Assembly (NCBI GenBank): GCA_041671225.1
Contig: JBAZBY010000001.1
Location: 494,940-558,939, forward strand
Source of the DNA: Patescibacteria group bacterium
GTDB taxonomy: Bacteria; Patescibacteriota; Patescibacteriia; JBAZBY01
DNA: 64,000 bases
Reading direction: 5' to 3'
The position numbers and the translations under genes are program-made. The notes beneath the pieces are model-generated. The model worked only from the letters and a program-made list of their open reading frames with translations. It did no database searches and was not told the DNA's origin. Positions 1 to 40,869 of this stretch are shown here, piece by piece. Numbering within the stretch: the first letter of the stretch is position 1; every line of letters starts with the position of its first letter.

Positions 1-804
1 ACGTTTGGTTTTTTTGGCATTGTTTTTGCCCAGTCGAGTGAAACAATCAATATCACCGCGATTGTTCCTGAACCAGAGCCTACTGAAGAACTCATCACGA
101 AGGTGATCTTTACGGGGATTGCGTATCCTGGTGAGCAGGTAACGCTGCAGCGAGCTGGCGTGACCATTGCGAGTGTGCCAGCCGACCCAACAGCTCATTT
201 TGACATCGGTTTTGAGACAGACCCGGGCAGTTACGCATTCACTGTCTATGCAACAGACGAAGAAGGACGAACATCTCCATCAATGTCTTTTAGCGTCACA
301 CTGACGGAAGGAGTGATATTAACGGTGAATGGTATCTTTCTCGGGCCAAGTATTGAAGTTGAACAACCGACGTATGCACTCAGTGACACTGTCGTTGTTT
401 TTGGACAAACAGCGCCATCAAGTCAGGTGACGCTTTTTGTGAGTTCTGATACGACACAGACGTATGATACTGTTTCTGATACCAATGGTTTATGGTCGCG
501 CTCACTGCTTGCAAATGACATTGGCACAGGAACGCATGAATCAAATGCAAAGGCTGAGAATCCTGATGCGCTTATTTCTGAGCTGAGTAAAACCGTAACC
601 TTTGCGGTTGAAGATGATGATCTTTGCAGCGGCAAGACGCGCGGTGATTTGAACTGTGATGGCAGCGTCAACCTCGTTGACTTTAGCATCCTTCTTTTTT
701 ATTGGCAGCAAACACATCCAGCAAACGAACGAGCAGATATTAATGATGACGGTATTGTGAATATTGTTGACTTTAGTATTATGCTCTTCTATTGGACTGG
801 TTAA
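1..804 (+). CDS. Secreted protein with C-terminal dockerin domain (5'-partial; frame open from nt 1)
   Basis: The reading frame is stop-free from position 1. The C-terminus carries two Ca-binding dockerin-type repeats, DLNCDGSVNLVDFSILLFYW and DINDDGIVNIVDFSIMLFYW. Confidence 0.75.
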   Translation, partial: TFGFFGIVFAQSSETINITAIVPEPEPTEELITKVIFTGIAYPGEQVTLQRAGVTIASVPADPTAHFDIGFETDPGSYAFTVYATDEEGRTSPSMSFSVTLTEGVILTVNGIFLGPSIEVEQPTYALSDTVVVFGQTAPSSQVTLFVSSDTTQTYDTVSDTNGLWSRSLLANDIGTGTHESNAKAENPDALISELSKTVTFAVEDDDLCSGKTRGDLNCDGSVNLVDFSILLFYWQQTHPANERADINDDGIVNIVDFSIMLFYWTG

Positions 805-805
805 C

Positions 806-1924
806 ATGAAGTATTTTTTTCTCACACTTTTTGTTATTTTTGGATTTTCTTTTGCATCGCATGCAAATGCTTCTGTTTTGAAAATACATCCCTCTGAGCA
901 GATTGTGCAGCCGGGGGATATCGTTATTGTTGATGTACAATTAGATAGCGAGGCGCAGACAATTAACGCGGTTGAAGGGTACATCACGTATTCACCAGAA
1001 ATTTTGCAACCGGTTGAGCTCTCACGCGGAGGCTCTTTTTTAACACTATGGCCTGAGGAACCGCAACAAAACGCCATTGGCTCTCTGCAGTTTTCAGGCG
1101 GCATTCCAGGCGGAACCATTGCATGGAATGGACTCGTGTTACGGTTGAGCTTTGAAGTTCTTGCGCCAGGTACTGCCGAAATTGCGTTCGTTGACGCACG
1201 GAGCGGTGCGTACCTCAATGATGGTCTTGGTACTGCAACACAACTCACAACGCAACGCGGTGTTGTCTTTGTGGAATCTCTTGCTGAAGATGCATTACAC
1301 ATTACCTCCGGCACGCATCCTGACCAGACAGCATGGTACCAAGAAGATGCCGTGGAGTTACAATTTCCGCTGCGTGAGAATGCCGATTATGCATATACGC
1401 TTTCCATAGACCCGCTTGCGCATCCGGCGGATATCCCACAGGAAACAACAGGAACAGTGCGCTATGGCAGCCTCGATGACGGTATCTGGTATTTTGCATT
1501 GCAAGAGCGTCGCGACGGAGAGGAGTGGGGTGCAGTGAATCACTTCCGAATAAAGATTGATAGCACACCCCCTGAACCATTTGAACCAGTCTTCACTCTT
1601 GAACAAGAAGGAAATAAAGGAACGCCTATACTCCTGTTTTCCGCGCACGATGCGCTCTCTGGGGTTGAACGGTATACTGTGCAAGAGGGAACACATACAA
1701 CCGAGGATGCAGCCAGTCCGTATGTTATCCGTGATCCCGATGCTCTCGACGATGTGGTGATTCGCGCGTATGACTACGCTGGCAATGTGCGCAAGGTAAC
1801 GTATCATGGACGTACCGGCACTGTGGTTGCAGAAAATAACAATCAGATTTTACTCCTGTCTATTATTGCCGGACTTCTGGTGCTTTCCCTTTTTCTCTTT
1901 ATGGTAGCCAAACGTAATGATTAA
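806..1924 (+). CDS. Cohesin-like domain protein, membrane anchored (scaffoldin-like)
   Basis: ATG at 806 sits immediately after the upstream stop. Signal peptide MKYFFLTLFVIFGFSFASHANA. Cohesin-like beta-sandwich signature INAVEGYITYSPEIL...GLVLRLSFEVLAPGTAEIAFVDARS...LNDGLGT. C-terminal TM helix ILLLSIIAGLLVLSLFLFMV. Confidence 0.7.
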   Translation: MKYFFLTLFVIFGFSFASHANASVLKIHPSEQIVQPGDIVIVDVQLDSEAQTINAVEGYITYSPEILQPVELSRGGSFLTLWPEEPQQNAIGSLQFSGGIPGGTIAWNGLVLRLSFEVLAPGTAEIAFVDARSGAYLNDGLGTATQLTTQRGVVFVESLAEDALHITSGTHPDQTAWYQEDAVELQFPLRENADYAYTLSIDPLAHPADIPQETTGTVRYGSLDDGIWYFALQERRDGEEWGAVNHFRIKIDSTPPEPFEPVFTLEQEGNKGTPILLFSAHDALSGVERYTVQEGTHTTEDAASPYVIRDPDALDDVVIRAYDYAGNVRKVTYHGRTGTVVAENNNQILLLSIIAGLLVLSLFLFMVAKRND

Positions 1925-3191
1925 ATTGCGAAATTCAACATTATCATTTCTTACAGCATTCGCTTTTCTTTTGGCGTTTCCTGCTTTTGCGCATGCATCA
2001 ACGTTGTTTTTTTCACCGAGTGCAGGGTCGTATCAAACGGGAGCTACCTTTAGCGTTGGCGTCTACGTCAATGCAGGCGCGACGCCCATCAATGCGGCAA
2101 ATGGTACGATTGGCGCGTCCAACCTTACGATAACGAGCGTACGCAAGGCATCATTGTTTAGCTTATGGCCGGTTGAGCCCGGAATGAGCGGCACTAGCGT
2201 CAGTTTTGCTGGCGGGCTTCCTTCACCAGGATATAGCGGAACCGCAGGACAGTTTCTTATACTTTCGGTTCGCGCAGGGAGCGTAGGGACGGCAACCCTT
2301 TCTTTCAGCGGGGCGAGTATTCTCGCAAATGACGGCCTTGGCACAAATGTGCTCAGTGGCACGGGCAGTGCAGCATTTACGATTACCGCAGTACCAGAAG
2401 CAGTACCGGGCATTCCCGGCGCTCCCACGGTTTCTTCACCAACGCATCCGGACCAAGAGCGTTGGTATGGCGATCCGAATCCGACCTTCACATGGAATCG
2501 CGGTTCTGACGTGGATGGCTTCAGCTACCTTTTTGATGACAATGCAGAGACGATACCAGAAACAACGCGCAGTGGAAACGATACAGAAGTTTCCTTTCAT
2601 GATCTTGCTGATGGTATTCATTATTTTCATATCCGCGCCCACACCGAAGCCGGTTGGGGAGCCACAACGCATTTTATTATCCGTATTGATAACACGCCGC
2701 CAGGCGCGCCAACAGTAACATTTGAAGATGACCTGCCGCTTGAACGTCCTTACGCGCTTCTCTATATCATAAGCGAGGATGCAACGTCCGGCATTGATCA
2801 TTTTGATGTCTTTCTTGATGATGGCGAGGTCGTTGTGTTGACTTCTGAAGAAGCCGCACAGTATGTGTTGCTTGATCTTTCTCTTGGCAAACATCGCTTG
2901 ATGGTACGCGCCATTGACCGCGCAGGAAAAATTGCGGAAATAACGATCTTTTTTGTTGTTCAGGAAGCTGGTGCGCCGGTTATTTGCGAAACACCGACGT
3001 GCCCAGCCGAGACGGTAACACTCTTTGGCGGACTTACCCTGCAACAGACCATAGTCAAAAATTGGCTTATTGCTTTCTGTTGTCTTTTTCTCTTATTATT
3101 GGTTGCTATTCTTACGCGCTTCAAACAAGAGACCGGTTCACTCCGGCATCTGGTATTTCCTGTTCGCAAGAAAACAGGAAAGCGTAAGTAA
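1917..3191 (+). CDS. Cohesin-like domain protein, paralog of the upstream gene, membrane anchored
   Basis: Signal peptide. Cohesin-like N-domain (PINAANGTIGASNLTITSV...FLILSVRAGSVGTATLSFSGASILANDGLGT). Shares THPDQxxWY and HFxIxIDxTPP motifs with the upstream paralog. C-terminal TM helix. Confidence 0.7.
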   Translation: MIKLRNSTLSFLTAFAFLLAFPAFAHASTLFFSPSAGSYQTGATFSVGVYVNAGATPINAANGTIGASNLTITSVRKASLFSLWPVEPGMSGTSVSFAGGLPSPGYSGTAGQFLILSVRAGSVGTATLSFSGASILANDGLGTNVLSGTGSAAFTITAVPEAVPGIPGAPTVSSPTHPDQERWYGDPNPTFTWNRGSDVDGFSYLFDDNAETIPETTRSGNDTEVSFHDLADGIHYFHIRAHTEAGWGATTHFIIRIDNTPPGAPTVTFEDDLPLERPYALLYIISEDATSGIDHFDVFLDDGEVVVLTSEEAAQYVLLDLSLGKHRLMVRAIDRAGKIAEITIFFVVQEAGAPVICETPTCPAETVTLFGGLTLQQTIVKNWLIAFCCLFLLLLVAILTRFKQETGSLRHLVFPVRKKTGKRK

Positions 3192-3192
3192 T

Positions 3193-3966
3193 TTAAAACC
3201 AGCGTAACTTAAGTGCCCCGGCAGTGGAATCGATGGGGTTGATAAATGCTGGTGGTAAACAAGAACCTACGGGAGTGCCTGGGTTTGACGAACTAACGCC
3301 GAGGTAATATGCGCAACCGTTTTTATCATTTCCACAATTTGAAGGAAGAAACAAACCGCCTGGACATTCACTATCTGTAAAACTTTGGCAACCTGACTTA
3401 AACCACGCGAAATATGCACCAGGCACAACGGTATGACCCCAAAATGTACCACCGGGACTGTGCGATATATAGATGAAACTTGGATAGCCACTCGTAAATT
3501 TTTTCGTTACAGGTGAGAGGATGGGGTTGGTTTGAATGTTGCGGTTGATATATGGAAGCATTTTTGTCGCAATAGCACTGTCCCCACTTTGTGTTGGTCC
3601 CGCACCACTACAAGGAGCTGCCGATGATTCACCGATTCGGCAGTAGCTATTAGCACCAAGACCGACTCTTCCCGCCCCGAGACAGGTATGTTCTGGAAAT
3701 CCAGGGCCGTAACTAAAACATGTTGGGGCTTGTCCCATACAGTGACTGGTAGGAAGTGCTCCATTATTATCATCTGCAAACACCATAAGCGCATTCATCA
3801 GTGAACGTGCGTCGGTAGACGCCTTTGCATTTAATGCTTTCTCTCGCCCGCCATTCAGTTGTACCAGCCCGATCGTTGAAAGAATTCCAATGATTGCAAT
3901 AACGATCAGCAGCTCAATGAGGGTAAAGCCTTTTTTGTTTTCAGGATTTTTTTCGTCCTTTTCCAT
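3193..3966 (-). CDS. Type IV pilin-like / pseudopilin (class III signal peptide)
   Basis: An internal Met gives MEKDEKNPENKKGFTLIELLIVIAIIGILSTIG, the canonical prepilin N-terminus (G-F-T-L-I-E plus hydrophobic helix). The longer ORF upstream of this Met is Arg/Cys-rich and looks non-coding. Confidence 0.7.
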   Translation of the reverse strand: MEKDEKNPENKKGFTLIELLIVIAIIGILSTIGLVQLNGGREKALNAKASTDARSLMNALMVFADDNNGALPTSHCMGQAPTCFSYGPGFPEHTCLGAGRVGLGANSYCRIGESSAAPCSGAGPTQSGDSAIATKMLPYINRNIQTNPILSPVTKKFTSGYPSFIYISHSPGGTFWGHTVVPGAYFAWFKSGCQSFTDSECPGGLFLPSNCGNDKNGCAYYLGVSSSNPGTPVGSCLPPAFINPIDSTAGALKLRWF

Positions 3967-4912
3967 GGTGCGTTTTATAGATATCCTTAAGGCCTTTGTT
4001 CGTGACGTGCGTGTATATTTGGGTTGTGGTGATCGATGCATGGCCGAGCAGCGCCTGCACAGAGCGGATGTCCGCTCCGCTGCCGAGCATGTCGGTCGCA
4101 TATGAGTGGCGCAGCGTGTGAGGCGTTACTGGTTTGGTGATGCCGGCAATTTTTGCGTAGTGTTGCACAATGCGTTGCACAGAACGAGACGTGAGCGCCT
4201 CTCCGGCAGAGCCGGATCCCGCTCCGCGGGGGGCTTCACTACTTTTTTTTGCGCGGTCGTGTCGCACAAACAACGAGGGGTTCAGATCATGGCGTGCATC
4301 TTTATACGCCTTCAGCGCTGCGCGTGCGGCATCAGAGAGAAACACAAGACGAAGTTTACCACCCTTACCGCGCACTGTGAATTCATCCTTTTTAAGATTT
4401 ACTTGCTCTTGCGTGAGATTCGCGAGTTCAGAAACACGCAAGCCCGTTGAAAAGAGCGTTTCAAGAATTGCTGTATCGCGATGTTTGACGATTTCGTCCG
4501 CGTCACTTTTTTCAGGCGCAGAAAGAAGCGCTTCAACCTCCTCTTCATCCAAGAAGCTCACTTCCCGTTGTTGTTGTTTTGCCAGCTCGATTTTTTCAGG
4601 CGCAAGCGATAGAATGTCCTGTTTTGAGAGGTATTTCAAGAATGACCTGAGCGCAATAAGGTGGTAGTTGATGGTTGATGCTTTGAGCGGTTCGCCTTTT
4701 GGCCCCTCTCTCCGGTTCAACATGAGCCGAAAACGTTTCACTTTTGGAAGCGTGATATCTTCTGGTTTTTTGATCTCACTTTCAGAAAGAAAACGAGTGA
4801 GGTAAAAATCGTAATTTTTGATCGTTTTTTGGGATGCCCCATGTTCAATCTCTAGATACTCCAAAAAATCGGTTTGAAGTTTCTGAGCAGTATTACCCCC
4901 CTTTTGTGGCAT
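3941..4912 (-). CDS. Tyrosine site-specific recombinase, XerC/XerD family
   Basis: C-terminal catalytic region HTLRHSYATDMLGSGADIRSVQALLGHASITTTQIYTHV (R-H-R-Y signature) and an N-terminal SAM-like core-binding domain. Confidence 0.85.
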   Translation of the reverse strand: MPQKGGNTAQKLQTDFLEYLEIEHGASQKTIKNYDFYLTRFLSESEIKKPEDITLPKVKRFRLMLNRREGPKGEPLKASTINYHLIALRSFLKYLSKQDILSLAPEKIELAKQQQREVSFLDEEEVEALLSAPEKSDADEIVKHRDTAILETLFSTGLRVSELANLTQEQVNLKKDEFTVRGKGGKLRLVFLSDAARAALKAYKDARHDLNPSLFVRHDRAKKSSEAPRGAGSGSAGEALTSRSVQRIVQHYAKIAGITKPVTPHTLRHSYATDMLGSGADIRSVQALLGHASITTTQIYTHVTNKGLKDIYKTHHGKGRKKS

Positions 4913-9756: not shown

Positions 9757-12700
9757 TTGTATATGAAACATACACGATATCAGCGCATGTTCGCATCCAT
9801 CGCAGTCATTGCGATGATCCTCATGCCACTCAGCGGTCTGCAGATCAACACCGCACAAGCAAGCGGCTTGCAAGTGACAGGCAGAGTTGTCAGCCCGAGC
9901 GGCGCAGCGCTTTCCAGCGCTGGCGGTTGGGTGCAGATCGATCCCGCTGCCGGTGGCCCAGGTTTTGGGGAACCGATTCAGAATGACGGTACGTTCACCC
10001 TGAACGGTTTAACTGCCGGCCAGTATAACGTGATGCTAAATTATGGCGGGGCTGGAGATTACACCGCACCGGCGCCGTTCCTCATTACCATTGGAGCAAC
10101 GAATGTTAATCTTGGAAATATCAAACTTGTGATGCCGGCGATCAGTGGGGTACTTTTACCGCCGTCAGGAAGTGCACCCGTCACCAATGCCTCCATCAAT
10201 CTTCGTAGTCAAGACTATACGGTGAATATATGGATCGGCACGGATCCTGTTACCGGAACATTCAAATTCGGTGGCATCAATCCGGGAACATATATCTTAG
10301 CGGCTGAAGCACCGGCCGGTAGCGGATATGCAAATGCAACTGCTGAACTGGAATATACGGGTACAGCGATCACGAATTATCAGTTGCGTCTTGCAATGCC
10401 GAACGTCAAAGGAAAGATCGTCAGCTCTACCGGTGGCTCGTTGGCATATCCGGATATGGCATGGATGAACGCGCGCCTGCACAACGAAGATTACACCATT
10501 TCTCGCGATGCAAATGTCGACCGCACGTCTCATGAATTCATCTTTGGGACTGTGCCATCAGGTTCTTACATATTGGAATTTGATGCGAATGGATTTTCAG
10601 AAACGCCTCCAACAGCCATCACCGTTTCTGTGACGAGCGGTGTATTGAAGAATTTAGGTAATATTCGGATGAGTCGGTCACAATTACAGGGAACCATTAC
10701 CGATCCGTCGGGAGATCCGGTGCAAAATGCGAATATTCAGGTACATAATGATGACTGGTCAAAGAAAGCATGGGCGAACACCGATCAAAACGGTGCATAT
10801 CGCATTGGCGGACTTGCCGCCGGTATATATACCATTGAGGTTCAGGCACCATGGGGAGGTTCTTCCGGACTTGTGTCTCCTGAACCGCAACAAGTGACGC
10901 TGACGCTGGGCGGAACGATCACAAAAAATCTCCGGTTCGTGCAGGCAACGAAGTTCCTGCGTGGAACGGTACGATATGCCGTTGGCACCGGCGCTCAGGC
11001 CGTTGTTGAAGGGGGTGTTGCCGGTGCGCAGGTGAATCTGAATAAAGACGGGGGCTTTGGCAATGCAAGCGCCACCACGGATAGTTCAGGCAATTATGAG
11101 ATCGCGCTTTCCGGCGGCATTTGGAATATGAATGTACAGCCGGCCAATTATCCCGGAGCACCGGCAGCGGATTGGTTCTATGCCGGTCCATCACTGAGCG
11201 TGACATTCGCGAACAACGGAACAATAGAAAATAAGACCATGAATGTGGGAGTTGAACGCGCAACAGCAAGCATCAAAGGAAAAGTGACAAAAGCAGACGG
11301 AACACCGGTGACGCAGGCATGGGTGGATGCAAGGAATGGTAGCGGTGCAGGACAGGGTACCAATGTACAGCCGAACGGGACCTTTACCTTGCGAGTAAAA
11401 GCAGGGACATACACCCTCAATATCTTTGGTGATCAGTCCATGACCTTTCCGGATATGCAGGTTAGTGTGAAAGACGGGGAAATAAAGAACATCGGGACCG
11501 TCACTGCAAAGACCAAAGACGCTAAGATCATCGGAAAGTTTGTTGATGCGTCCGGACGCCCGGTACAAGGACTGCAGGTCGGCGCATTCCAATTTAATGC
11601 AAAAGGATGGAGTAATGGAACATCAGATGAGAACGGCCAGTTCGTTCTTGCGGTGACTTCCGGGCGCTGGGGCGTCAACATGGATAATGGCGGCAACTCA
11701 TCGTATGTGTATTCCGGACAACCTGTTGATGTTGATGTGAAGACCGAAACCTCCACGGTGACATTTGAAGACAACCCGAGATTGGTCATGGAGCTTACCC
11801 GTGCGGATGCAACGATCCAAGGGAACGTTGTCGATACCGACGGTAATGTGGTAACGGGTTTCTGCGCATGGGCGTGGGCTCAGCCAAAGACCGCCGAGAC
11901 ACAAGGGAAAGACGGGGAATTCATGGGACAGCGGTTCGGCGGTCCGGTGAATTGTCAGAACGGGTCATTTTCCATCAGTGTGCCATCAAAAGTAGCTTCC
12001 ACATATATCATCGGCATCGATACTCCGCCGAATACGGTGTATTCCCCGGAAGGAACGCAGACGGTCGCAGTTCTTGCGGACATCACCATAACAAAGAATC
12101 TCGTCGTCAAAGCGAACGATGCGACCCTCAAAGGAAATCTTGTTGACCAGGCTGGAGATCCGGTGAAGGATTGCACAAGCCCGCGCGGATGGTTCGGGGA
12201 CGTGAATGTCTTCGGCAACGGTGGCTGGAAAGGCGGACCCATCAATCCGGATTGCAGTTTCAGCTTCTCGCTGCTTTCTGGTGAATACAACTATGGCTGG
12301 TGGATCGATGACAGCCGTTTCCTGCAAACACCTCCAAGTGATGAAAAGATCACCATCAAAGCCGGTGACAATACATTGAAGATCAAAGTCCTCCGTTCTG
12401 ATGTGACCATTGAAGGAACAGTGGTGAATCCCTCTGGCAAAGGCGTTGATGCCTATGTATGGGCAGGCAATACCGGCGGTGAAGACGAGAAACAGAACGA
12501 TGCAGACATGAACTTCGGCAAGAACATCTTTACCGGGACAAAGACAGAACAAGACGGTACATTCAGCCTTGGACTGCTCTCAGGACAAGTGTGGGAGGTC
12601 GGAACAGGTCTTCCGCAGGGGTCACAATATATGCCAGCGGAACTCTCGACGATCGATCTGAAGAATGGAAGCGCACCGGATGCATTGAGACTGAAGCTGC

Positions 12701-14517
12701 AGGAAGCATTGGGAACTCTTTCCGGTAGCGTTACCATCGGGAATTCTCCTGCGCAGTTCGGATATGTGCATTGCTGGAGTGAACAAGGCGGTTTCACCGG
12801 CGGCGAAGTCATGAATGGAAAATATGAAGTGAACTATGTACAGGGGGATTGGCACTGCCAAGCGGACAGCTTCAATGGCGACACGTTCTATCAGAGCGAT
12901 GAGGCGCTGATCACCGTCACAGACCAGAAGAGTCTGCAGCAGGACTTTACACTTGGTGAGTCTATCTTCTCAGTGCCTTCTACTGTGACGGCAACATTTG
13001 ACGCCGGGGAAGTGCGGAACATCGAACTGGAGAACGGCGTGCGCATCAACATTCCATCAGGAGCGCTTGGGGATGCCGGAACGAACGTGACGGTCACTGC
13101 TTCACCGAATGTCAACGTGAACCAGACCAAGACCGACAAATTGTTCGGCGTCGGGTATGAATTCTCCGCAAAGACCGCTGACGGAACGGACATTACCACG
13201 TTCAACAGCAATGTCACCATCATATTCCCATATACGGACGCGCAATTGGAGGAAATGGGAGTGACGGAAGATGCGCTCGTACCGAAGTATTATGACTCAA
13301 CAACGAATACGTGGCAGCTTCCTATCGGTATCACCGTGGATACGGAGAACAACACCATCTCCATTCAGACGAATCACTTCACAACATTCGGCATCATGCG
13401 TTCCGGTATCACGGGACCTTCCGGCGGTGCACAGAAGATTGTTGCGTCTGCAAAGGCAGGCGGCGGTCCGCACGTAACTGTTTGGGATGCTAACGGCGAG
13501 CTCACTGGCAGCTTCATGGCATACGCAGATACGTTCCGCGGCGGCGTGAATGCAGTCATCGGTGATATTGACGGTGACGGCGTCGGAGAAGTCGTGACGG
13601 TTCCGGATAGCGCTGCCGGCGGACAAGTTCGCGCATTTGAGCAGGACGGCACCTTTATTGGTGAAGTATGGCCCTACGGGTACGGAACCTCATGGCGCGG
13701 TACGCTTTCTCTTGCACTTGCCGATATTGATGGTGATGGCAGTGATGAGGTGATTGTTGCTCCAAAGTCCAACGGTGGCCCGAATGTCCGCACCTATAAC
13801 TTCACTGGTTCTGGATTCGGCCTTCATAGCCAGTTTAACGCGTATAACACGTCACTTCGTACCGGTATTAAAGTATACAGCGAGGATGTTACTGGTGATG
13901 GCACAGCAGAGATCGTGACCGTTCCAATGCCCGGCGCGCCAGCACACGTGCGCGTGTTGAACCAGACTGGTGGTTTGGTCGGCCAGTTCTACGCATTTAC
14001 TGAGGGGTATCGTGGCAGTGCAAACATTACCTTTGGCGACGGTGACCGGGATGGCGACAATGATCTCGTTCTTGCGCCAGCCGTTCTTGGCGGCCCTCAA
14101 GTGCGTGTTGTTGATGGTGGTGGCCAGATGATCTACCAGGAATTCCTCTGGAATTCGAACTGGCGCATGGGTTTTACAGCAGCAATTGATGACACATGGG
14201 AAGGTGGACATATGCATATCATTGCAGCGCCTTCGCAGGGTAGCGGACCACAAATGCGCGTCTGGGATATTGACCCAGGACGCCACAGTCCATATTCTCA
14301 AGGATTCGCATACAATGAATCTTTCCGTGGTGGCGTTGATGTCGTTGTCGCAGATGTTGATAGCGATGGAGTTATGGAGGCTATTACCGCCCCTGGCGCA
14401 GGAGGTGGCCCTCATATCCGCTCTTTCGAGCATGGGTTCACTGGTAGTCCAGAGCTCAACTTTATGAGCCATGCTTCAGCCTTCCGCGGCGGTGTGAACA
14501 TCGACATCGGTCGATAA
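9757..14517 (+). CDS. Giant secreted surface protein with carboxypeptidase-regulatory-like beta-sandwich repeats and C-terminal FG-GAP (integrin-alpha-like) repeats
   Basis: 1586 aa. Signal peptide MFASIAVIAMILMPLSG...AQA. Repeated GxVVxxxGxPV units. C-terminal repeats GDIDGDGVGEVVTVPD...GGQVRAF / GGPNVRTY / GGPQVRVV / GGPHIRSF. Confidence 0.8.
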   Translation: MYMKHTRYQRMFASIAVIAMILMPLSGLQINTAQASGLQVTGRVVSPSGAALSSAGGWVQIDPAAGGPGFGEPIQNDGTFTLNGLTAGQYNVMLNYGGAGDYTAPAPFLITIGATNVNLGNIKLVMPAISGVLLPPSGSAPVTNASINLRSQDYTVNIWIGTDPVTGTFKFGGINPGTYILAAEAPAGSGYANATAELEYTGTAITNYQLRLAMPNVKGKIVSSTGGSLAYPDMAWMNARLHNEDYTISRDANVDRTSHEFIFGTVPSGSYILEFDANGFSETPPTAITVSVTSGVLKNLGNIRMSRSQLQGTITDPSGDPVQNANIQVHNDDWSKKAWANTDQNGAYRIGGLAAGIYTIEVQAPWGGSSGLVSPEPQQVTLTLGGTITKNLRFVQATKFLRGTVRYAVGTGAQAVVEGGVAGAQVNLNKDGGFGNASATTDSSGNYEIALSGGIWNMNVQPANYPGAPAADWFYAGPSLSVTFANNGTIENKTMNVGVERATASIKGKVTKADGTPVTQAWVDARNGSGAGQGTNVQPNGTFTLRVKAGTYTLNIFGDQSMTFPDMQVSVKDGEIKNIGTVTAKTKDAKIIGKFVDASGRPVQGLQVGAFQFNAKGWSNGTSDENGQFVLAVTSGRWGVNMDNGGNSSYVYSGQPVDVDVKTETSTVTFEDNPRLVMELTRADATIQGNVVDTDGNVVTGFCAWAWAQPKTAETQGKDGEFMGQRFGGPVNCQNGSFSISVPSKVASTYIIGIDTPPNTVYSPEGTQTVAVLADITITKNLVVKANDATLKGNLVDQAGDPVKDCTSPRGWFGDVNVFGNGGWKGGPINPDCSFSFSLLSGEYNYGWWIDDSRFLQTPPSDEKITIKAGDNTLKIKVLRSDVTIEGTVVNPSGKGVDAYVWAGNTGGEDEKQNDADMNFGKNIFTGTKTEQDGTFSLGLLSGQVWEVGTGLPQGSQYMPAELSTIDLKNGSAPDALRLKLQEALGTLSGSVTIGNSPAQFGYVHCWSEQGGFTGGEVMNGKYEVNYVQGDWHCQADSFNGDTFYQSDEALITVTDQKSLQQDFTLGESIFSVPSTVTATFDAGEVRNIELENGVRINIPSGALGDAGTNVTVTASPNVNVNQTKTDKLFGVGYEFSAKTADGTDITTFNSNVTIIFPYTDAQLEEMGVTEDALVPKYYDSTTNTWQLPIGITVDTENNTISIQTNHFTTFGIMRSGITGPSGGAQKIVASAKAGGGPHVTVWDANGELTGSFMAYADTFRGGVNAVIGDIDGDGVGEVVTVPDSAAGGQVRAFEQDGTFIGEVWPYGYGTSWRGTLSLALADIDGDGSDEVIVAPKSNGGPNVRTYNFTGSGFGLHSQFNAYNTSLRTGIKVYSEDVTGDGTAEIVTVPMPGAPAHVRVLNQTGGLVGQFYAFTEGYRGSANITFGDGDRDGDNDLVLAPAVLGGPQVRVVDGGGQMIYQEFLWNSNWRMGFTAAIDDTWEGGHMHIIAAPSQGSGPQMRVWDIDPGRHSPYSQGFAYNESFRGGVDVVVADVDSDGVMEAITAPGAGGGPHIRSFEHGFTGSPELNFMSHASAFRGGVNIDIGR

Positions 14518-25669: not shown

Positions 25670-28600
25670 ATGAACGAACGGGGGCAAAATCAAGAATCAA
25701 AACCGCGCCGCGGTTTTAGTATTCGCATGGCTATTGCGGCATTTGTGTTGGTGGCCATTCTTATTGGCGGAGTAGTGTTCCTTTTTCCTCGTCCTGTGCA
25801 GGCATTTCCTGGTGAGGCGCTTGCCGCTGCCGCATGGAAGGAAATTCGCGATTCTTTGCGTTATCTTGGCCAGAATCTTAATACCATTCGCAAAGATGCA
25901 CTGAAGGTAACCTACGATATTACGTACAAGAATACGTTGCGGCTGTATCTTTCTCGCATTGCGGAAGATACAGCGGTGTGGGTTGCATCCGCAGGCACCG
26001 GCCAAGAGCCGCTTTTTATCACTGACCCAAAATATTTTCAAAAATTGAATGATGCCGCCGTTGGTGATTTTGTTGCGCGCATTTCAACGCAGACGTTTGG
26101 TACGGATCTTTCGCCACTCATTGGGACGCAGGTGTTTAAGGATCCTAAATCCCTTGCATTGGTTCGCCGCGTTGTCACAACCCTCACTTCTCCAGATAAA
26201 AAGACACAGTCATGTAATGATTTTTGTATTCCAACAGCGGAGGGAAGTGAACAAAAACTCCAAGCGGTTCGTAAGTGGCAGAGTGAAGGGCTTGAACATT
26301 TAGTTCCTGATGATCCCAAAGATTTAGGCCCAGTGGTTAATTGTCCTGTATCGATCGATGATGATGACAAGTATACCCTCTATTGGAAGGATGGCGAGAT
26401 CGACTCAAGAAGTATCATGGAGTGGCCAAAAATTGAAGCACGGGTGTGTCATGGATTGCTCTCAAGTTACATTGGACAATTAAAAACAGAAGCACAGGCA
26501 ACCTTTCAGGCATGTCTCAATGAATGTAAGGCTTTTTCTGGTCAACGTGGAAAATCAGCGGCAGAAACGTGGACGAATCTCAAAGCTGTGGATCTTGGAG
26601 CTGCTGTTGAGTCATATTATTCTCTTGAAAATAATCATTTCGGCGTCGCGCTCTCACTCTATAATGAGGCGGCAAAGGCAGGCCGTGAAGAAGAAAAGGC
26701 TCTACGCGATATCACTCCAGAAGGAGGCCTGAAGCCATTAGTATCGCCAGTTAGTGGCGCGGTGCTCACCCCGAGCGTTCTTACTGAGGAGCGGGCAACA
26801 CAAGCAGTGCAAGAATCCACTTCCGCGGAAAAAATTCAGACAGGATCGCCGTGGGCTGATGCGCTTGGCGTGTTTTCAAACACATTGGTGCAGAAGCTCA
26901 CCGAACGCTTTTTTGCGGGCAAGTGCGGACTCAACCCCAAGGAATGCGCAGGGCCATCAGGAAGTCCGGGTACGTCTGATTTAGGTTCATTGCTTTTTAG
27001 TGGTCAGCGTCTTACAAGCATTGCTGCTGCGCGGTTGCAGTTCGCCTCTTTGGCGCAGATCAGCTATTCAGTAGGAAGTCCTTCAAGCGATACCTATTCT
27101 AGCGTTGATGAACTTACGGCGAGCGGCGTTCTTGATGCTGGGTTTGCTCAGGCAATTGAGCAACGCTTCACTGTTCAGGAGGCCATTAATAATGGTTTGC
27201 TACAGGGTGAGCGTACGTTTGGTTTTGATGCACAACGCAATGACCCCGGGAGTAATGGATATGGGTATCGGGCAATGGTGTATCTCCGACGCGCGCGCAT
27301 TATTCCTGTGGGTTGGGAACTTGCGGCACAGTATATTCGTGAGTATGAGAACAGCGGAAATGTTTTGAGTCTACAACGCGTGGTGGATGCGTTCTTTGAT
27401 TGTGGCATAGACGGTACTGATGCCTCACCTTACTGCGGTCTTGTTGATCCCAACTGGGTTCTCAAAGCACCGGAACAATTCTGTAAACGCGCGGGCGCTG
27501 GAGACGAAATTATTTCACGTGATTTCGTTTGCGACGAAGATACGAATGCGGACGGACGCATCAATTGTTCCGCCGACCCTGTTTTTGGCGGAGACCTTGG
27601 ACGCTGGGTATTGCAACGTGACCAAAATCAATGCGTGGATGTGCAGGATTGTATTCTTGAAAATGATGATGGTACCTGTATCGCCTTTGGGTATTGCTTT
27701 GAAGAAAAGCCAATATGGCGTTTTGATGGGGAGGCATGTCCTTCGTATTACACATCATGTCAAAGTTACGAGAATACCGCCGGAAACATTTCCGCGTACC
27801 TTGCAGACACCGTCAATATAGATTCATGTACTGCTGAGAATGCGGGATGTCAGGGGTACTGTGCAGAATCGAGCTATTGGGGATCGCGTGATCAATGGAC
27901 ATGTACCGCAGACAGCGGGAAGATTGTCTATGCTGATGATGATATTCAATCCTGTAATGAACAAGAGTCTGGTTGCAATGAATATATTCGGACAACCAAT
28001 GGTACGAATCTCGTTCCGAACGGGAGTTTTGAAATATATACCGGTACTATTGATGACACGACTGATGATAGCTTTGCAGGATGGAGTGGTGCTGCTCTTG
28101 CGGTATCGAGCACCAATACTTCATTTGGCGCGGATAATGTTGTTGTTGCAGAAATTGCTGCAAGCGGGAGTTTGCAAGCACGAATTCAAACCGGCACGCC
28201 AATGGCAGGCCGTTCGTTTACCGTTGGTTTAAACACAAAAGGCGCAACAGGCACGTGCAGTGGTACGCTGCAGGTGTCATCAGGTTTGTATAGCCCGCCC
28301 GTCGTTCCTGTTTCGTTTGGCTCATTCTGGCAGCAGAATGCCAGTACTTTTTCCGTACCAAACAACGCATCAGCAGATACGTATGTTGATATAGAAATTA
28401 TCCCTACCGGTTGCGCCGGTCAGATTGATGTCGCTTATCTCACGCTTGGCGATGCCTTCTATAATTATACAGACTACGGTACAACGAATCGCATCTATCT
28501 CAATGCCTATGGTGATAATCTTTTGGCAAACAGTGATTTTTCCTATGACGCGGGAAAAGATTTTGATCCAGACTGGGTAGGCGATAACACCACTGAGAAT

Positions 28601-31363: not shown

Positions 31364-31386
31364 TGAGACTTAAGGAGGTGAAATAT

Positions 31387-34300
31387 ATGCGCCCTATTAT
31401 CACAGGAGTTTTACTCCTGGCAGTCAGTTTTGCTACTGCAGCGTTTGTGTTTCCTAGTGAAGTGCACGCACTGCCGAATGATATTCTGTATACCAACCAC
31501 CAGGATAGCATTACCCCAAAAGGGATAATACTTGATGGATCCTTTATTTGGGTTATAAGTCACACTCAGGATGGGTATCCGAGTATCGGCAACGGCCTCT
31601 TTAAGTTAAACAAGAGCGATCTCTCCATTGCACTTTCTGTTGTGAATCCTGAGCCGACGGTTATGGATCAAGATATTGTTATTGCTGGGGGCTATGTTTG
31701 GTGGATTAAAGGCCATATTATTTATCGCCTTGATGCCGCGGGTAATATTATTCACACATATAATTATCAAAATCTTAATCCCATACTTGAGGAGTTTTAT
31801 AATTGTGATTCTTTTGGCAAGGCAGTGTCCGATGGTACGTATCTTTATGTCGCGAATGCAGTCACTGCGGGGTCTGGTATTTGTAAGATACGGATAACGG
31901 ATGGCGTGGTAATGGATTGGTTTCCAGTCGGTGAGCAGTACGACACCATCTTGGATATTTTTTATCTAAATGGCAATCTGTATTTTTACCGCAAGATAAC
32001 CGGAGATATTGTTGAGATGAATCCAAGCACCGGTGCTTTTCTGCGACACCAGTCGGCGGGGGGCTTAAGTACCGCACCCACAGAAACCGGAGATTTTATT
32101 GGGACGTCCCCTGATTTCATTAACCGTTTAACCGGCTCGACCTTTACTGTGGATCATACATATAGTGCACTCGCCCACGACTTTAGCTTTTCCCTTGCTG
32201 CTCCTGGCTCAGGAAAGCACATTCTTTTTGCTGGCAATAAGATCAACTATATATCAGAACCGCCGAATGGATTGGATGAAATCAGTACGCCGGATTATAC
32301 CCTACTCAACGCCGAGACCGTTTATGATGGGGTTCTTGATGGAAATATTCTGTATACTATTTCTGGTCCTGCTATTGCGCGGTATGACCTCACTGCCTTT
32401 TTGGGCATTCCCGTGACTGGTCCTGCAACCGATGAAATTCCTTCGCTCGGCGTTATGATAACAAGTGATCCAACGGCAACGGTTGCTGGCAACACTGCGA
32501 ATTTTGCATGGCAGACTGCCCCCAATCCCGGAACAAGTTGGGGCTCATATCGTGATAGCGACCCCATATCCATGACATCAATGAATATCACCACAGAAAC
32601 GTTGCGTGATATTGATTGCCAGGGCACGCGTTGCTTTGCCGTTGGGCATAACGGCGTGATTCATCGCAGTACCAATGTCACGACCTGGAGCGCGCAGACA
32701 TCCGGAACCAGTAATGATCTCTTCAGCGTTTCTGCCGTATCCCCTGATATAGCGTGGGCAGTTGGGGAAGCCGGAACCATTTTGAGGACTGCCAATGGAG
32801 GCAGTACATGGACAGCGCAGACATCACCCTATGGCACTGTTGCGCACATTAACAGCGTGTTTGCCATTGATAGCAATACCGCATGGGCAGTCACCAGTAC
32901 CGGCAAGGTTATACGCACGACTGATGGCTATGCATGGTCAGAGGCGGCTTCACTTGCAACAAATGTCCCAATGAATGCCATCATGTTCGCAAAAAACAGC
33001 GATGGCACGCTTTCGGGTTGTGTTGCGGGGGACGCTGGTAACCTCTGGCGCTATGATAGTGGTACAACGTTCACAAAATTGACCACAAATGATACCTCAT
33101 CTGGTCTTGAAGGCTGTTCGGTTTCTACACAGCCAGGGAGTCATACCGCATTTCAAATGTTTGGCGTTGCGCGCAACGGGAAGGTCTGGCGCCATGATTA
33201 CTCAGGAACAGGAACAACCTCACTCACGAACCCCCTCTTTTCTGGTTTAGCACACAAGAGCGTACAAATGTATCCTGGCGGGCGGGTCTGGATCGGCGAT
33301 TCAAATGGCAAGGCACTCTATTCTGATGATGCAGGTCTTTCATGGACATTGATCAATCTTGGCGCTTCCACGACCGGATTCCTCGGGCTGTATGTCTATG
33401 AACCGACCGACGTCGTCTTTGTGGGAACCAACGGTGGTAACTTCCGTTATCAGGCAATTTATGGAACCACTTTTGGGCCGTCTACCTATCTCAATTCACA
33501 TAACATCCCCACACCAGCGCTCGCAGAACTCACAACGTATCATTACAAAGTTGCCTCACAAACCGCAGCGGGCGCGTATGTTGGGAGTTGGGATTATACT
33601 TTTGATACCGGTTTTGATGACACCACTCCGCCAACATGGCCAACGCCAAACGTCAACGGCACAAAGGCTTGCAGCGGAAGCACCATACAGTACACATTAA
33701 CGTGGGATCAGGCAACGGATGCAGAATCCGGTATTGACCACTATGAAGTCTGGCGATCGGTCAACTCTTCATTACCCACGAGCTACTCAAAGGTCAATGG
33801 AAATATTGCCGCAACAGGGCCTTACACCCTCACTGATCCGGGGCCGTTGAATCCGGGTTCAACGTATCGCTATATTGTCCGCGCGTATAATCGTGCCGAG
33901 CTATATACTGAATCGCCGGTACATTCCATTGTACCCGGAACGCCAACATTCAATATCACATGGGAAGGTCCTCAACCATTGCCGCCGCATGTAACGGTTA
34001 CCAAAGGCGATCCCGGCGTGTACCAGATCAATGTGACGCGTGATTGGTGTTTTGCCGGAACAATTGCTTGGAGCTATGTCAGTTCAACGCCGCCGACCGG
34101 CCAACCTGCAATGGCAGGCACAATGTATACCTTTGGCCCGGAGACGAGCGGTATTGTGCAGATGAATGTTGCAACATCAGCCCTCGGCCTGGGGACCTAC
34201 ACGAATATGAAGGTGAAGGGTGTCAGTGGCACCACAAAGTATGTTGACCTTGCAAAACTCACCATCGAGTCTACTGATACTACCCCGCCATCAGCCCCCA

Positions 34301-40868: not shown

Positions 40869-40869
40869 T

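What the first reader, a model, noticed from the sequence alone, without database searches (positions are those of the whole stretch)
1..3191. Cohesin-dockerin module set: a dockerin-bearing protein followed by two membrane-anchored cohesin-like paralogs
The upstream partial ORF ends with a textbook double Ca-binding dockerin repeat. The next two genes each encode signal peptide + cohesin-like beta-sandwich + a shared THPDQxxWY/HFxIxIDxTPP middle domain + C-terminal TM anchor. Genetic linkage of dockerin and cohesin carriers suggests a self-assembling cell-surface complex. Here the scaffold-like subunits are anchored by a C-terminal TM helix rather than by sortase or SLH.
Basis: partly seen in the sequence, partly recalled or inferred. 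Interest (0 to 1): 0.55.

Follow-up and report, generated by a model that had tools for sequence, protein, structure and literature searches.

The report
Patescibacterial cohesin–dockerin surface-complex gene cassette
Three tightly packed genes of an uncultured ultra-small (Patescibacteria/CPR) bacterium encode a secreted protein ending in a calcium-binding "plug" (dockerin) and two membrane-anchored proteins tipped with the matching "socket" (cohesin); the trio sits in this order in every related genome examined whose sequence reaches upstream, so it probably builds a non-enzymatic cell-surface complex, although binding itself was not tested.

Summary

- **Gene 1 (window 1-804):** lacks only 15 codons of a 282-aa secreted protein. 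It has two Ig-like domains and a C-terminal dockerin (Pfam 33.5 bits, cut-off 22.9; two canonical Ca2+ loops).
- **Genes 2 and 3 (806-1924, 1917-3191):** paralogs (BLASTP 4e-32). Each has a signal peptide, an N-terminal cohesin-like module, two Ig-like spacers and a C-terminal TM helix.
- **Cohesin call:** Pfam Cohesin is just sub-threshold for gene 2 and absent for gene 3. An AlphaFold model of gene 2 (pLDDT 92) matches solved cohesins (TM 0.8, rmsd 2.1 Å). Gene-3-type orthologs pass the Pfam cut-off.

The new result is synteny. In 23 of 24 Patescibacteria loci a dockerin gene lies just upstream of 1-3 cohesin-TM genes. The exception is a contig that starts at the cohesin gene. In 15-17 loci two further families come first: a WxLIP(DUF916)-like TM protein and unannotated two-domain secreted proteins.

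There are no enzymes, CBMs or multi-cohesin scaffoldins, so this is not a cellulosome.

NCBI already names the genes individually. TM-helix cohesin anchors are a recognised class. I found no description of the cassette. Cohesin-dockerin binding is inferred, not shown.

Verdict: new variant of a known kind, moderate interest.

The parts
1..804 (+). 3' 267 codons plus stop of a 282-aa secreted protein with two Ig-like domains and a dockerin (full gene = P0059 / L001 1817-2665)
   Evidence: Translation. Full-length gene and gene call. Identical NCBI protein named 'dockerin type I repeat-containing protein [Patescibacteria group bacterium]'.
106..564 (+). Two Ig-like beta-sandwich domains of the dockerin protein (Big_6-like at nt 106-297; Big_13-like at nt 403-564)
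   Evidence: Pfam Big_6 27.4 bits and Big_13 29.4 bits, both close to their cut-offs.
622..801 (+). C-terminal dockerin module. Ca2+ loops at nt 646-681 (DLNCDGSVNLVD) and nt 736-771 (DINDDGIVNIVD), each followed by DFSI(L/M)LFYW
   Evidence: Pfam Dockerin_1 33.5 bits against GA 22.9. Loop coordinates. The module is strongly conserved and always C-terminal in 20 loci.
806..1924 (+). Gene 2: 372-aa type I membrane protein with signal peptide, cohesin module, two Ig-like domains and a TM helix (P0001)
   Evidence: ORF list and gene call. NCBI name 'cohesin domain-containing protein'. AF2 model pLDDT 92.4.
872..1276 (+). Cohesin-fold module of gene 2 (aa 23-157)
   Evidence: Pfam Cohesin 21.7 bits (cut-off 24.1). 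Foldseek hits: 6kge TMt 0.81 with rmsd 2.1 Å; also 2vn5, 1g1k, 5nrm, 5n5p and 2w1n, E down to 4e-12.
1298..1810 (+). Two Ig-like spacer domains of gene 2 (THPDQTAWY ... IDSTPP domain, about aa 165-254; SGVERY ... YDYAGN domain, about aa 256-335)
   Evidence: AF2 strands. Conserved motifs. NCBIfam OmpL47-type weak hit at 278-330.
1838..1918 (+). C-terminal TM helix of gene 2 (aa 345-371, ending AKRN; final residue D372), no sortase-type motif before it
   Evidence: Hydropathy 2.92. AF2 helix 345-371. The family alignment shows a hydrophobic helix followed by RRR(R) and no conserved motif upstream.
1917..3191 (+). Gene 3: 424-aa paralog with the same architecture as gene 2; overlaps gene 2 by 8 nt
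   Evidence: BLASTP against gene 2 gives 4e-32. The family cohesin-domain HMM gives 9e-37. Gene-3-type orthologs reach Pfam Cohesin 30.7 and 24.2 bits.
1998..2390 (+). Cohesin-like module of gene 3 (aa 28-158)
   Evidence: Alignment to the gene 2 cohesin. HMM match over aa 28-161 of the stop-to-stop ORF that begins at nt 1908, i.e. about gene-3 residues 25-158. No Pfam Cohesin hit of its own.
2430..2960 (+). Two Ig-like spacer domains of gene 3 (THPDQERWY ... IDNTPP; SGIDHF ... IDRAGK)
   Evidence: Pfam Big_13 27.4 bits at aa 186-258. Motif positions. Alignment.
3045..3131 (+). C-terminal TM segment of gene 3 (hydrophobic stretch aa 377-405, core NWLIAFCCLFLLLLVAILT), followed by a 19-residue basic cytoplasmic tail
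   Evidence: Hydropathy 2.72.

Best explanation
The three genes are the 3' half of a conserved Patescibacteria operon-like cassette that builds a non-enzymatic protein complex on the cell surface.

**Proposed mechanism:**
- All three products are exported by Sec signal peptides.
- Genes 2 and 3 stay in the membrane through a single C-terminal helix with a basic tail inside the cell. Two Ig-like domains hold one cohesin module at the membrane-distal tip.
- The small protein of gene 1 has two Ig-like domains and a dockerin. It is captured at the surface when its Ca2+-loaded C-terminal dockerin plugs into the cohesin of one or both anchors.
- The two dockerin halves are nearly identical (DFSI[L/M]LFYW after each loop). 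This allows either binding orientation, as in dual-binding-mode dockerins.
- The genes just upstream of the window, a WxLIP/DUF916-like TM protein and small and giant secreted proteins sharing a C-terminal two-domain module, probably belong to the same assembly. The giant protein is the likely outward-facing adhesin.
- The most likely role is surface organisation or attachment to other cells in these host-dependent bacteria, not polysaccharide breakdown.

**Shown computationally:** domain identities, topology, gene packing and synteny.

**Inferred:** the cohesin-dockerin contact, which cohesin is the partner, participation of the upstream proteins, and the biological role.
For: - Dockerin above the Pfam cut-off, with two canonical Ca2+ loops.
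- Cohesin fold of gene 2 at high model confidence. Solved cohesins, several of them crystallised in complex with dockerins, make up nearly all of the top Foldseek hits.
- 20 of 27 family members hit Pfam Cohesin. Gene-3-type orthologs pass the gathering cut-off.
- Signal peptides and C-terminal TM helices.
- A 1-nt gap and an 8-nt overlap between the genes.
- Synteny: the dockerin gene lies immediately upstream of 2-3 cohesin-TM genes in 18 of the 19 genome loci, the exception being a contig that starts at the cohesin gene. In 4 of 4 more distant loci it lies upstream of 1-3 such genes, with up to one intervening gene.
- All-against-all clustering of 24 loci finds only four recurrent families: cohesin-TM in 24 loci, dockerin in 23, domain X in 17, and the WxLIP-like protein in 15.
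- The dockerin is the most conserved element of the cassette, with mean p-distance 0.35 against 0.51-0.62 for the others.
- Four loci add a ~250-320-aa protein (stop-to-stop ORFs) with a cohesin-like module and a dockerin on one chain, like monovalent adaptor scaffoldins.
- There is only one dockerin and no glycoside hydrolase or CBM in the cassette.
Against: - No binding test or complex prediction could be run.
- Pfam Cohesin is below cut-off for gene 2 and absent for gene 3.
- Dockerin positions 10-11 are hydrophobic (LV and IV) rather than the Ser-Thr of the classic C. thermocellum type I pair, so specificity cannot be read from known complexes.
- The family-specific invariant motifs (INAxE, SxxxLWxxxP, GGxPxG, LNDGxGT) have no known role in cohesins and could mark a different ligand site.
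- The mirror-tree comparison did not single out a cohesin partner.
- The link of the upstream proteins to WxL systems is only sub-threshold and has no sequence support from PDB.
Confidence: 0.65

Rival explanations
1. The cohesin-fold modules are general-purpose tip domains of membrane-anchored adhesins. They bind something other than the neighbouring dockerin, for example the domain-X proteins, a wall polymer or a host-surface ligand. The dockerin binds another partner elsewhere. Co-location would then reflect co-regulation of surface proteins rather than a plug-and-socket pair.
For: - Pfam Cohesin is sub-threshold or absent for the two window proteins.
- Strongly conserved family-specific motifs not known from cohesins (LNDGxGT, GGxPxG) suggest a specialised site.
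- The cohesin-TM family is very large, with 7108 representatives at E<=1e-30, against 193 dockerin-protein clusters. The two searches differ in sensitivity, and the larger count is inflated by Ig repeats.
- Cohesin-fold domains without known dockerin partners exist, e.g. TMEM132 (PMC6030884).
Against: - Dockerin adjacency holds in 23 of 24 loci across distant lineages.
- The dockerin is the most conserved part of the cassette.
- Natural cohesin+dockerin single-chain proteins occur in the same cassettes.
- The closest structural neighbours are dockerin-binding cohesins.
Confidence: 0.2
2. The cassette encodes a surface fibre or pilus-like polymer. The ~360-aa two-domain domain-X proteins would be polymerising subunits, the giant domain-X protein a tip adhesin, and the cohesin-dockerin pair only the membrane anchor for the fibre base.
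For: - The small and giant proteins share the same C-terminal domain.
- The AF2 model of a small member (P0203) shows two beta-sandwich domains. Its weak Foldseek matches are to Gram-positive pilus backbone and MSCRAMM adhesins.
- A conserved N-terminal strand-like segment (LTSxSDTLSxL) follows the signal peptide.
Against: - The Foldseek matches are weak (TM < 0.33).
- No sortase, chaperone, usher or dedicated signal peptidase recurs in the 24 loci.
- No evidence of polymerisation was obtained.
Confidence: 0.1
3. It is a minimal cellulosome-like system that displays polysaccharide-degrading enzymes.
For: Cohesin and dockerin are the signature modules of cellulosomes. A CBM_4_9 hit exists in a giant protein 22 kb downstream.
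Against: - The only dockerin-bearing protein has just Ig-like domains.
- There is no other dockerin in the 64-kb window.
- There is one cohesin per protein and no CBM or glycoside hydrolase in any of the 24 cassettes.
Confidence: 0.03

Closest known systems
Non-cellulosomal cohesin-dockerin pairs (Archaeoglobus fulgidus pair; Clostridium perfringens toxin/glycosidase complexes; survey of Peer et al. 2009 as cited in PMC9012536)
   Same: - A single cohesin and a single dockerin on non-cellulolytic proteins in an organism that does not degrade cellulose.
- The top Foldseek hit is the C. perfringens GH84C cohesin-FN3 construct 2w1n.
   Different: - Here both partners are non-enzymatic and the cohesin carriers are TM-anchored.
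- The pair sits in a fixed multi-gene cassette conserved across a phylum-level radiation.
- Binding has not been verified for this pair.
nonSLH-anchoring and monovalent adaptor scaffoldins of cellulosome-producing Clostridia (classification in PMC11557425)
   Same: - That classification's nonSLH-anchoring class is defined as at least one cohesin plus a cell-wall-interacting domain or motif, one listed example being a C-terminal TM helix.
- The ~250-320-aa cohesin+dockerin proteins (stop-to-stop ORFs) in L018, L019, L020 and L024 match the 'monovalent adaptor' definition.
   Different: - There is no primary scaffoldin, no dockerin-borne enzymes and no CBM.
- The cohesin is followed by two family-specific Ig-like domains (THPD...IDxTPP and SGIDxY...DxAGN).
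- The host is a Patescibacterium.
WxL / WxLIP (DUF916-DUF3324) cell-surface clusters of Bacilli (PMC9772566, PMC10599100)
   Same: - The upstream half of the cassette has the same gene logic. It encodes a large and a small secreted protein sharing a C-terminal domain, plus a ~340-aa protein with a signal peptide, two beta-sandwich-type regions and a C-terminal TM helix.
- 11 of 19 of the latter hit WxLIP_PGBD (best 26.0 bits, E 1e-5).
   Different: - All hits are below the Pfam cut-off of 27.3.
- There are no WxL motifs and no Pfam WxL hit in the secreted proteins.
- No DUF3324 hit and no LPXTG protein were found.
- WxL clusters are >91% Firmicutes and have no cohesin-dockerin module.
TMEM132 / coherin-type architecture in animals and choanoflagellates (PMC6030884)
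   Same: An extracellular cohesin-homology domain is followed by tandem bacterial-type Ig domains and a single TM helix, with a predicted adhesion role.
   Different: - That family is eukaryotic and has no dockerin partner.
- It has three BIG domains and an extra N-terminal region.
- No homology beyond the shared folds was tested here.
Dockerin/cohesin proteins of ANME archaea (PMC9012536)
   Same: Abundant cohesin and dockerin modules in uncultured, partner-dependent microbes, proposed to organise the cell surface or cell-cell contact.
   Different: - The ANME proteins include multi-cohesin scaffoldin-like chains and dockerin-tagged solute-binding proteins.
- No fixed cassette like this one is described there.

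Membership tests
Dockerin type I (Pfam PF00404) | Profile score at or above the curated gathering cut-off | tested here: met
   33.5 bits against 22.9, E 5e-8, residues 215-261 of the window ORF. 33.3 bits for the full-length protein.
Dockerin type I (Pfam PF00404) | Two tandem ~22-residue segments, each with a 12-residue EF-hand-like loop carrying D/N at positions 1, 3, 5, 9 and 12 | tested here: met
   DLNCDGSVNLVD and DINDDGIVNIVD, 30 residues apart start to start. D, N, D, N, D sit at the five positions in both loops. Conserved in 20 loci.
Dockerin type I (Pfam PF00404) | Ser-Thr recognition pair at loop positions 10-11 (a hallmark of the C. thermocellum type I specificity group, not of the fold; own knowledge) | tested here: not met
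   Positions 10-11 are L-V and I-V and are hydrophobic in all 20 aligned loci. Specificity therefore cannot be transferred from known complexes.
Dockerin type I (Pfam PF00404) | Ca2+-dependent folding and binding to a cohesin | not testable with these tools
   Needs biochemistry or multimer modelling.
Cohesin (Pfam PF00963) | Profile score at or above the gathering cut-off | tested here: inconclusive
   Gene 2 scores 21.7 bits against 24.1 (E 2.6e-4), and gene 3 has no hit. 20 of 27 family members hit at E<=0.01, best 2.2e-7. Gene-3-type orthologs reach 30.7 and 24.2 bits.
Cohesin (Pfam PF00963) | Elongated beta-sandwich (jelly-roll) cohesin fold | tested here: met
   AF2 model pLDDT 92.4. Foldseek hits to CaCohA2 6kge/6kgf (TMt 0.79-0.81, rmsd 2.1 Å), 2vn5, 1g1k, 5nrm, 5n5p, 2jh2 and 2w1n, all at probability 1.00. 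Tested for gene 2 only; gene 3 is covered by homology.
Cohesin (Pfam PF00963) | Binds a dockerin | not testable with these tools
   Only indirect support: conserved adjacency to a dockerin gene in 23 of 24 loci.
Cellulosome | Scaffoldin with several cohesins, dockerin-borne carbohydrate-active enzymes, and a CBM | tested here: not met
   One cohesin per protein. The dockerin protein has only Ig-like domains. One dockerin in 64 kb. No enzyme family recurs in the cassettes.
nonSLH-anchoring scaffoldin (PMC11557425) | At least one cohesin module plus a cell-wall-interacting domain or motif, one listed example being a C-terminal TM helix | tested here: met
   Cohesin fold. C-terminal hydrophobic helix at 345-371 in gene 2 and 377-405 in gene 3. 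Definition taken.
Sortase- or SLH-anchored cohesin proteins | LPXTG-type motif before the C-terminal hydrophobic segment, or SLH repeats | tested here: not met
   The sequences before the TM helices read ...TGTVVAENNNQ and ...GGLTLQQTIVKN. The family alignment shows no conserved motif there. No SLH hit in Pfam.
WxL cluster (Hassan & Williamson definition, PMC10599100) | A full-length WxLIP protein (DUF916/PGBD + DUF3324/HBD + TM helix) | tested here: inconclusive
   11 of 19 members of the upstream ~340-aa family hit WxLIP_PGBD, best 26.0 bits against a cut-off of 27.3. JGI precomputed hits are also weak. A TM helix is present. No DUF3324 hit and no PDB sequence match. This gene lies upstream of the window.
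WxL cluster (Hassan & Williamson definition, PMC10599100) | Two proteins with a C-terminal WxL domain carrying the dual Trp-x-Leu motif | tested here: not met
   No Pfam WxL hit in 14 members. The conserved C-terminal motifs are GYAITY and ITYIATATF, without Trp. Foldseek gives only weak Ig-adhesin matches.

The most novel reading that the evidence does not exclude
The four-family cassette is a Patescibacteria-specific, wall-spanning surface machine. Its parts are domain-X small and giant proteins, WxLIP-like TM protein(s), a dockerin-tagged Ig protein, and two or three cohesin-tipped TM stalks. Cohesin-dockerin plugs would couple a WxL-like adhesin module to the membrane. The machine would be a main device by which many uncultured CPR bacteria hold on to their host cells.
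Probability: 0.25. Interest if true: 0.7.

Novelty: new variant of a known kind. Interest (0 to 1): 0.45.

Why it matters
Patescibacteria make up a large share of bacterial diversity. Most seem to live attached to other cells, and how they attach is largely unknown outside a few cultured Saccharibacteria.

This cassette gives a concrete, widespread and modular candidate for a surface complex. Its central interaction, cohesin-dockerin, is one of the best understood and easiest to test protein-protein contacts: recombinant modules with and without Ca2+.

It also shows that cohesin-dockerin pairs are used on a large scale outside polysaccharide degradation. The profile search returned thousands of 50%-identity representatives, though that count includes Ig-repeat proteins.

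Finally, it assigns a working context to two large families currently annotated only as 'hypothetical protein'.

Tried and rejected
- **Single-sequence PDB searches** with genes 2 and 3 gave only noise. A family profile gave marginal cohesin hits. Structure prediction was needed.
- **First genome scan** with the 27-sequence alignment failed for lack of a conserved stretch. A closer 10-sequence alignment worked.
- **Mirror-tree test** for which cohesin co-evolves with the dockerin. All components correlate through shared phylogeny. Partial r was 0.43 for the gene-2 type and 0.25 for the gene-3 type, no better than the control regions, so it does not discriminate.
- **WxL hypothesis for the upstream secreted proteins.** There was no Pfam WxL hit, no PDB sequence hit, and only a weak Foldseek match (rank 45, TM 0.12-0.15) to chain C of 9i25 ('WxLIP bound to long WxL'). 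Membership is rejected; the analogy in gene logic is kept.
- **WxLIP against PDB by sequence:** nothing.
- **Essential dockerin protein SEML1_0315 of Southlakia epibionticum (PMC10633639).** It is a 927-aa stand-alone gene next to a tRNA and a hydrolase. No cohesin, dockerin or WxLIP Pfam accessions appear in that paper's annotation tables. It is not this cassette.
- **Reaching further upstream in this organism** failed. The ENA contig ends 1.8 kb before the dockerin gene, and the 1-Mb record was not returned.
- **Pilin gene.** The convergent pilin gene next to gene 3 is not conserved in other loci, so it is not part of the system.
- **Peer et al. 2009** could not be read.

Full report
**1. 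What is in the sequence**

The region holds three co-directional genes on the + strand.

Gene 1 occupies window 1-804.
- It is cut by the window edge, but only slightly. An identical stretch on a public contig (L001) shows a 282-aa product, so 15 codons of the signal peptide are missing.
- The complete protein is MFFRSLTLLTLAILGTFGFFGIVFA|QS..., then two Ig-like domains (Pfam Big_6 and Big_13, both near their cut-offs), then a C-terminal dockerin.
- Pfam Dockerin_1 scores 33.5 bits against a curated cut-off of 22.9 (E 5e-8).
- The two calcium loops are DLNCDGSVNLVD (nt 646-681) and DINDDGIVNIVD (nt 736-771). D/N sits at positions 1, 3, 5, 9 and 12 in both. Each loop is followed by DFSI(L/M)LFYW.

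Gene 2 starts at ATG 806, one nucleotide after the stop of gene 1, and ends at 1924. Gene 3 starts at 1917 inside the sequence ATGATTAA, overlapping gene 2 by 8 nt, and ends at 3191.

The two products (372 and 424 aa) are paralogs, 31% identical over 345 residues (E 4e-32). They share one layout:
- a signal peptide;
- a ~135-residue N-terminal beta domain;
- a domain running from THPDQxxWY to IDxTPP;
- a third beta domain with SG(V/I)(E/D)xY ... DxAG(N/K);
- a strongly hydrophobic C-terminal helix (gene 2 aa 345-371; gene 3 within aa 377-405);
- basic residues at the end.

No LPXTG-like motif precedes the helix, and Pfam reports no SLH repeats.

**2. Are the N-terminal modules cohesins?**

Sequence evidence alone is borderline.
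- Gene 2 scores 21.7 bits on Pfam Cohesin against a cut-off of 24.1. Gene 3 gives no hit.
- At family level, 20 of 27 homologs hit Cohesin at E<=0.01.
- A family profile picks up four solved cohesins at marginal E-values.
- Gene-3-type orthologs reach 30.7 and 24.2 bits, above the cut-off.

Structure settles it for gene 2.
- An AlphaFold2 model built on 59 sequences has mean pLDDT 92.4. It shows three beta domains and a terminal helix.
- In a Foldseek search of the PDB, about thirty of the forty best matches are cohesin modules. The rest are multi-domain Ig-like proteins aligned globally at TM about 0.2-0.3.
- Examples are C. acetobutylicum CohA2 (TM 0.79-0.81, rmsd 2.1 Å), C. cellulolyticum 2vn5/1g1k, A. 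cellulolyticus 5nrm, R. flavefaciens 5n5p/5m2o, and the C. perfringens modules 2jh2/2vo8.
- The first hit overall is the C. perfringens cohesin-FN3 pair 2w1n (E 4e-12).
- Type II cohesins match less well (1qzn, TM 0.56). The fold therefore resembles type I/III, but I do not assign a type.

The family also carries invariant motifs of its own (INAxE, SxxxLWxxxP, GGxPxG, LNDGxGT). Their role is unknown.

**3. Who carries it, and is it annotated?**

Exact copies of genes 1 and 2 are in NCBI from a >1-Mb contig of a 'Patescibacteria group bacterium'. They are named 'dockerin type I repeat-containing protein' and 'cohesin domain-containing protein'. The individual domain calls are therefore already public.

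Both families are large.
- The dockerin protein has 193 clusters at 90% identity, nearly all ~280-300 aa with the same architecture.
- A profile of the cohesin-TM family finds 7108 representatives (50%-identity clusters) at E<=1e-30. Many are full-length 460-620-aa matches. The Ig-like repeats also occur in giant proteins and inflate the count.

**4. The key new result: a conserved cassette**

A scan of one genome per species returned 19 loci. Record titles name Kerfeldbacteria, Vogelbacteria, Parcubacteria, 'Saccharibacteria' and unclassified Patescibacteria.
- Searching their six-frame ORFs with the window proteins shows the same order in every locus whose contig reaches upstream: a ~285-aa dockerin protein, then a ~385-aa cohesin-TM protein, then one or two longer cohesin-TM proteins.
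- In four more distant loci, reached through other family members, the dockerin gene again lies directly upstream. In one of them an HSP20 gene intervenes, and in another a domain-X gene does.
- All-against-all clustering of the 24 loci finds only four recurrent families: cohesin-TM (24 loci), dockerin protein (23), a secreted 'domain X' family (17), and a ~340-aa TM-anchored family (15). No sortase, peptidase, chaperone or enzyme recurs.
- The dockerin module is the most conserved part, with mean p-distance 0.35 against 0.51-0.62 for the rest.
- Four loci add a ~250-320-aa protein (stop-to-stop ORFs) that carries a cohesin-like module and a dockerin on one chain. Pfam Dockerin_1 is above its cut-off in two of these. 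This is the layout of monovalent adaptor scaffoldins.

The typical full cassette reads:

[giant protein ending in domain X] - [~360-aa domain-X protein] - [one or two ~340-aa TM proteins] - [dockerin protein] - [two or three cohesin-TM proteins]

The window begins inside the fourth element. The second and third are visible just upstream in L001.

**5. The upstream families**

- **The ~340-aa TM protein.** It has a signal peptide, beta-sandwich regions and a C-terminal TM helix. It hits Pfam WxLIP_PGBD (DUF916) in 11 of 19 members over almost the whole model. All hits are below the cut-off (best 26.0 against 27.3 bits, E 1e-5). JGI's precomputed hits agree weakly.
- **The domain-X proteins.** They have no Pfam or PDB sequence match. 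All 438 clusters found are 'hypothetical'.
- **Structure of a small domain-X member.** The modelled protein is P0203, which is 86% identical to the partial gene in L001. The model has pLDDT 91.8 and shows two beta-sandwich domains. Foldseek gives only weak similarity to two-domain Gram-positive adhesins and a pilus backbone protein.

The gene logic is a large and a small secreted protein sharing a C-terminal domain, plus a DUF916-like TM protein. This is the defining logic of WxL clusters of Bacilli (PMC9772566, PMC10599100). The defining Trp-x-Leu motifs are absent here. I therefore treat this as an analogy, and possibly remote homology for the TM protein. It is not membership.

**6. Mechanism**

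Shown computationally:
- export signals on all three proteins;
- type I membrane topology, with the cohesin at the far end of a three-domain stalk;
- a canonical two-loop dockerin at the C-terminus of a small Ig protein;
- gene packing compatible with co-translation;
- strict synteny.

Inferred:
- The Ca2+-loaded dockerin binds the cohesin of gene 2, gene 3 or both, and tethers the Ig protein to the surface.
- The near-identity of the two dockerin halves would permit either orientation, as in dual-binding-mode dockerins (e.g. 2vn5).
- The upstream proteins probably join the same assembly, with the giant domain-X protein as the likely adhesin.
- It is not a cellulosome. The dockerin protein carries no enzyme, there is one cohesin per protein, no CBM or glycoside hydrolase is in any cassette, and only one dockerin lies in 64 kb.

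**7. Comparison with the known, and novelty**

- Non-cellulosomal cohesin-dockerin modules are well known. Archaeal pairs have been shown to bind (Peer et al. 2009 and Haimovitz et al. 2008, as cited in PMC9012536).
- A cohesin protein anchored by a C-terminal TM helix is already a listed class, the 'nonSLH-anchoring scaffoldin' (PMC11557425).
- What I could not find in seven full-text searches is any description of this cassette, or of cohesin-dockerin systems as a conserved feature of Patescibacteria.
- The one relevant paper notes an essential dockerin-domain protein in the cultured Saccharibacterium Southlakia. That gene is a 927-aa stand-alone gene in another context.
- I rate this a new variant of a known kind: familiar modules in a new, fixed and widespread arrangement, with non-enzymatic cargo, in a lineage whose surface biology is poorly known.

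**8. Limits**

- No binding test or multimer model was possible.
- The partner cohesin is unresolved.
- The structure of gene 3 and of the dockerin protein was not modelled.
- The upstream cassette genes lie outside the window, and the giant gene could not be recovered for this organism.
- Three loci carry record titles naming Gammaproteobacteria. These are probably binning labels, and I did not check them.

Noticed in passing
L018 10033-10788 (-), L019 4293-5192 (-), L020 10435-11391 (-), L024 10502-11254 (+): Four of the more distant cassettes include a ~250-320-aa protein (stop-to-stop ORFs) with a cohesin-like module and a C-terminal dockerin on one chain. This is the layout of monovalent adaptor scaffoldins, which could extend or chain the complex. 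Pfam Dockerin_1 is above its cut-off in L020 and L024 only.
   Followed up: partly
L001 2-658 and 749-1798 (immediately upstream of window position 1): Two further conserved cassette genes lie just outside the window. One is a ~360-aa secreted two-domain 'domain X' protein with no Pfam match and 438+ clusters, all 'hypothetical'. The other is a 349-aa TM-anchored protein whose family hits WxLIP_PGBD (DUF916) below the cut-off. In other loci a giant (>1200 aa) protein ending in domain X precedes them.
   Followed up: partly
window 625-627 and 655-657 (Cys209 and Cys219 of the window ORF): A cysteine pair brackets the start of the first dockerin Ca2+ loop (LCSGKTRGDLNCDG). It is conserved in the 15 closest loci and lost in the distant ones. 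It may be a disulfide that stabilises the dockerin, which is unusual for dockerins.
   Followed up: no
window 3193-4101 (-): A type IV pilin / pseudopilin-like gene (prepilin N-methylation motif GFTLIELLIVIAIIG; Pfam N_methyl 35 bits) is convergent with gene 3, and the two stop codons are 1 nt apart. It is not conserved next to the cassette in other loci.
   Followed up: partly
window 25670-44205 (+): Four consecutive abutting giant genes (1897, 1709, 1458 and 1111 aa) have only scattered domain hits (CBM_4_9, fn3, Big_7, a BNR/YCF48-like propeller, purple-acid-phosphatase N-like). This looks like another block of large surface proteins.
   Followed up: partly
window 9757-14517 (+): A 1586-aa protein has repeated CarboxypepD_reg (transthyretin-like) domains and FG-GAP repeats. 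The same CarboxypepD_reg domains are inserted in the long (790-840 aa) gene-3-type cohesin proteins of other loci (L006, L009, L010).
   Followed up: no
homologs P0025, P0032, P0035, P0051, P0052 (alignment A1, columns 600-691): Many gene-3-type homologs carry an 80-100-residue charged, probably coiled-coil tail after the TM helix. In this window's gene 3 the tail is only 19 residues. A conserved cytoplasmic tail would imply an intracellular partner.
   Followed up: no
representatives P0299, P0303, P0312, P0341, P0343: The Ig-like spacer domains of this family (profile positions ~166-345) occur as 10-43 tandem copies in giant proteins of 4000-5800 aa elsewhere in public metagenomes.
   Followed up: no
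L009, L013, L014 (record titles): Three loci carrying the complete cassette come from bins titled 'uncultured Gammaproteobacteria bacterium'. These are likely mislabelled Patescibacteria bins.
   Followed up: no
window 60001-64000: G+C rises to 0.57 in the last 4 kb, against 0.45-0.54 over the rest of the window.
   Followed up: no
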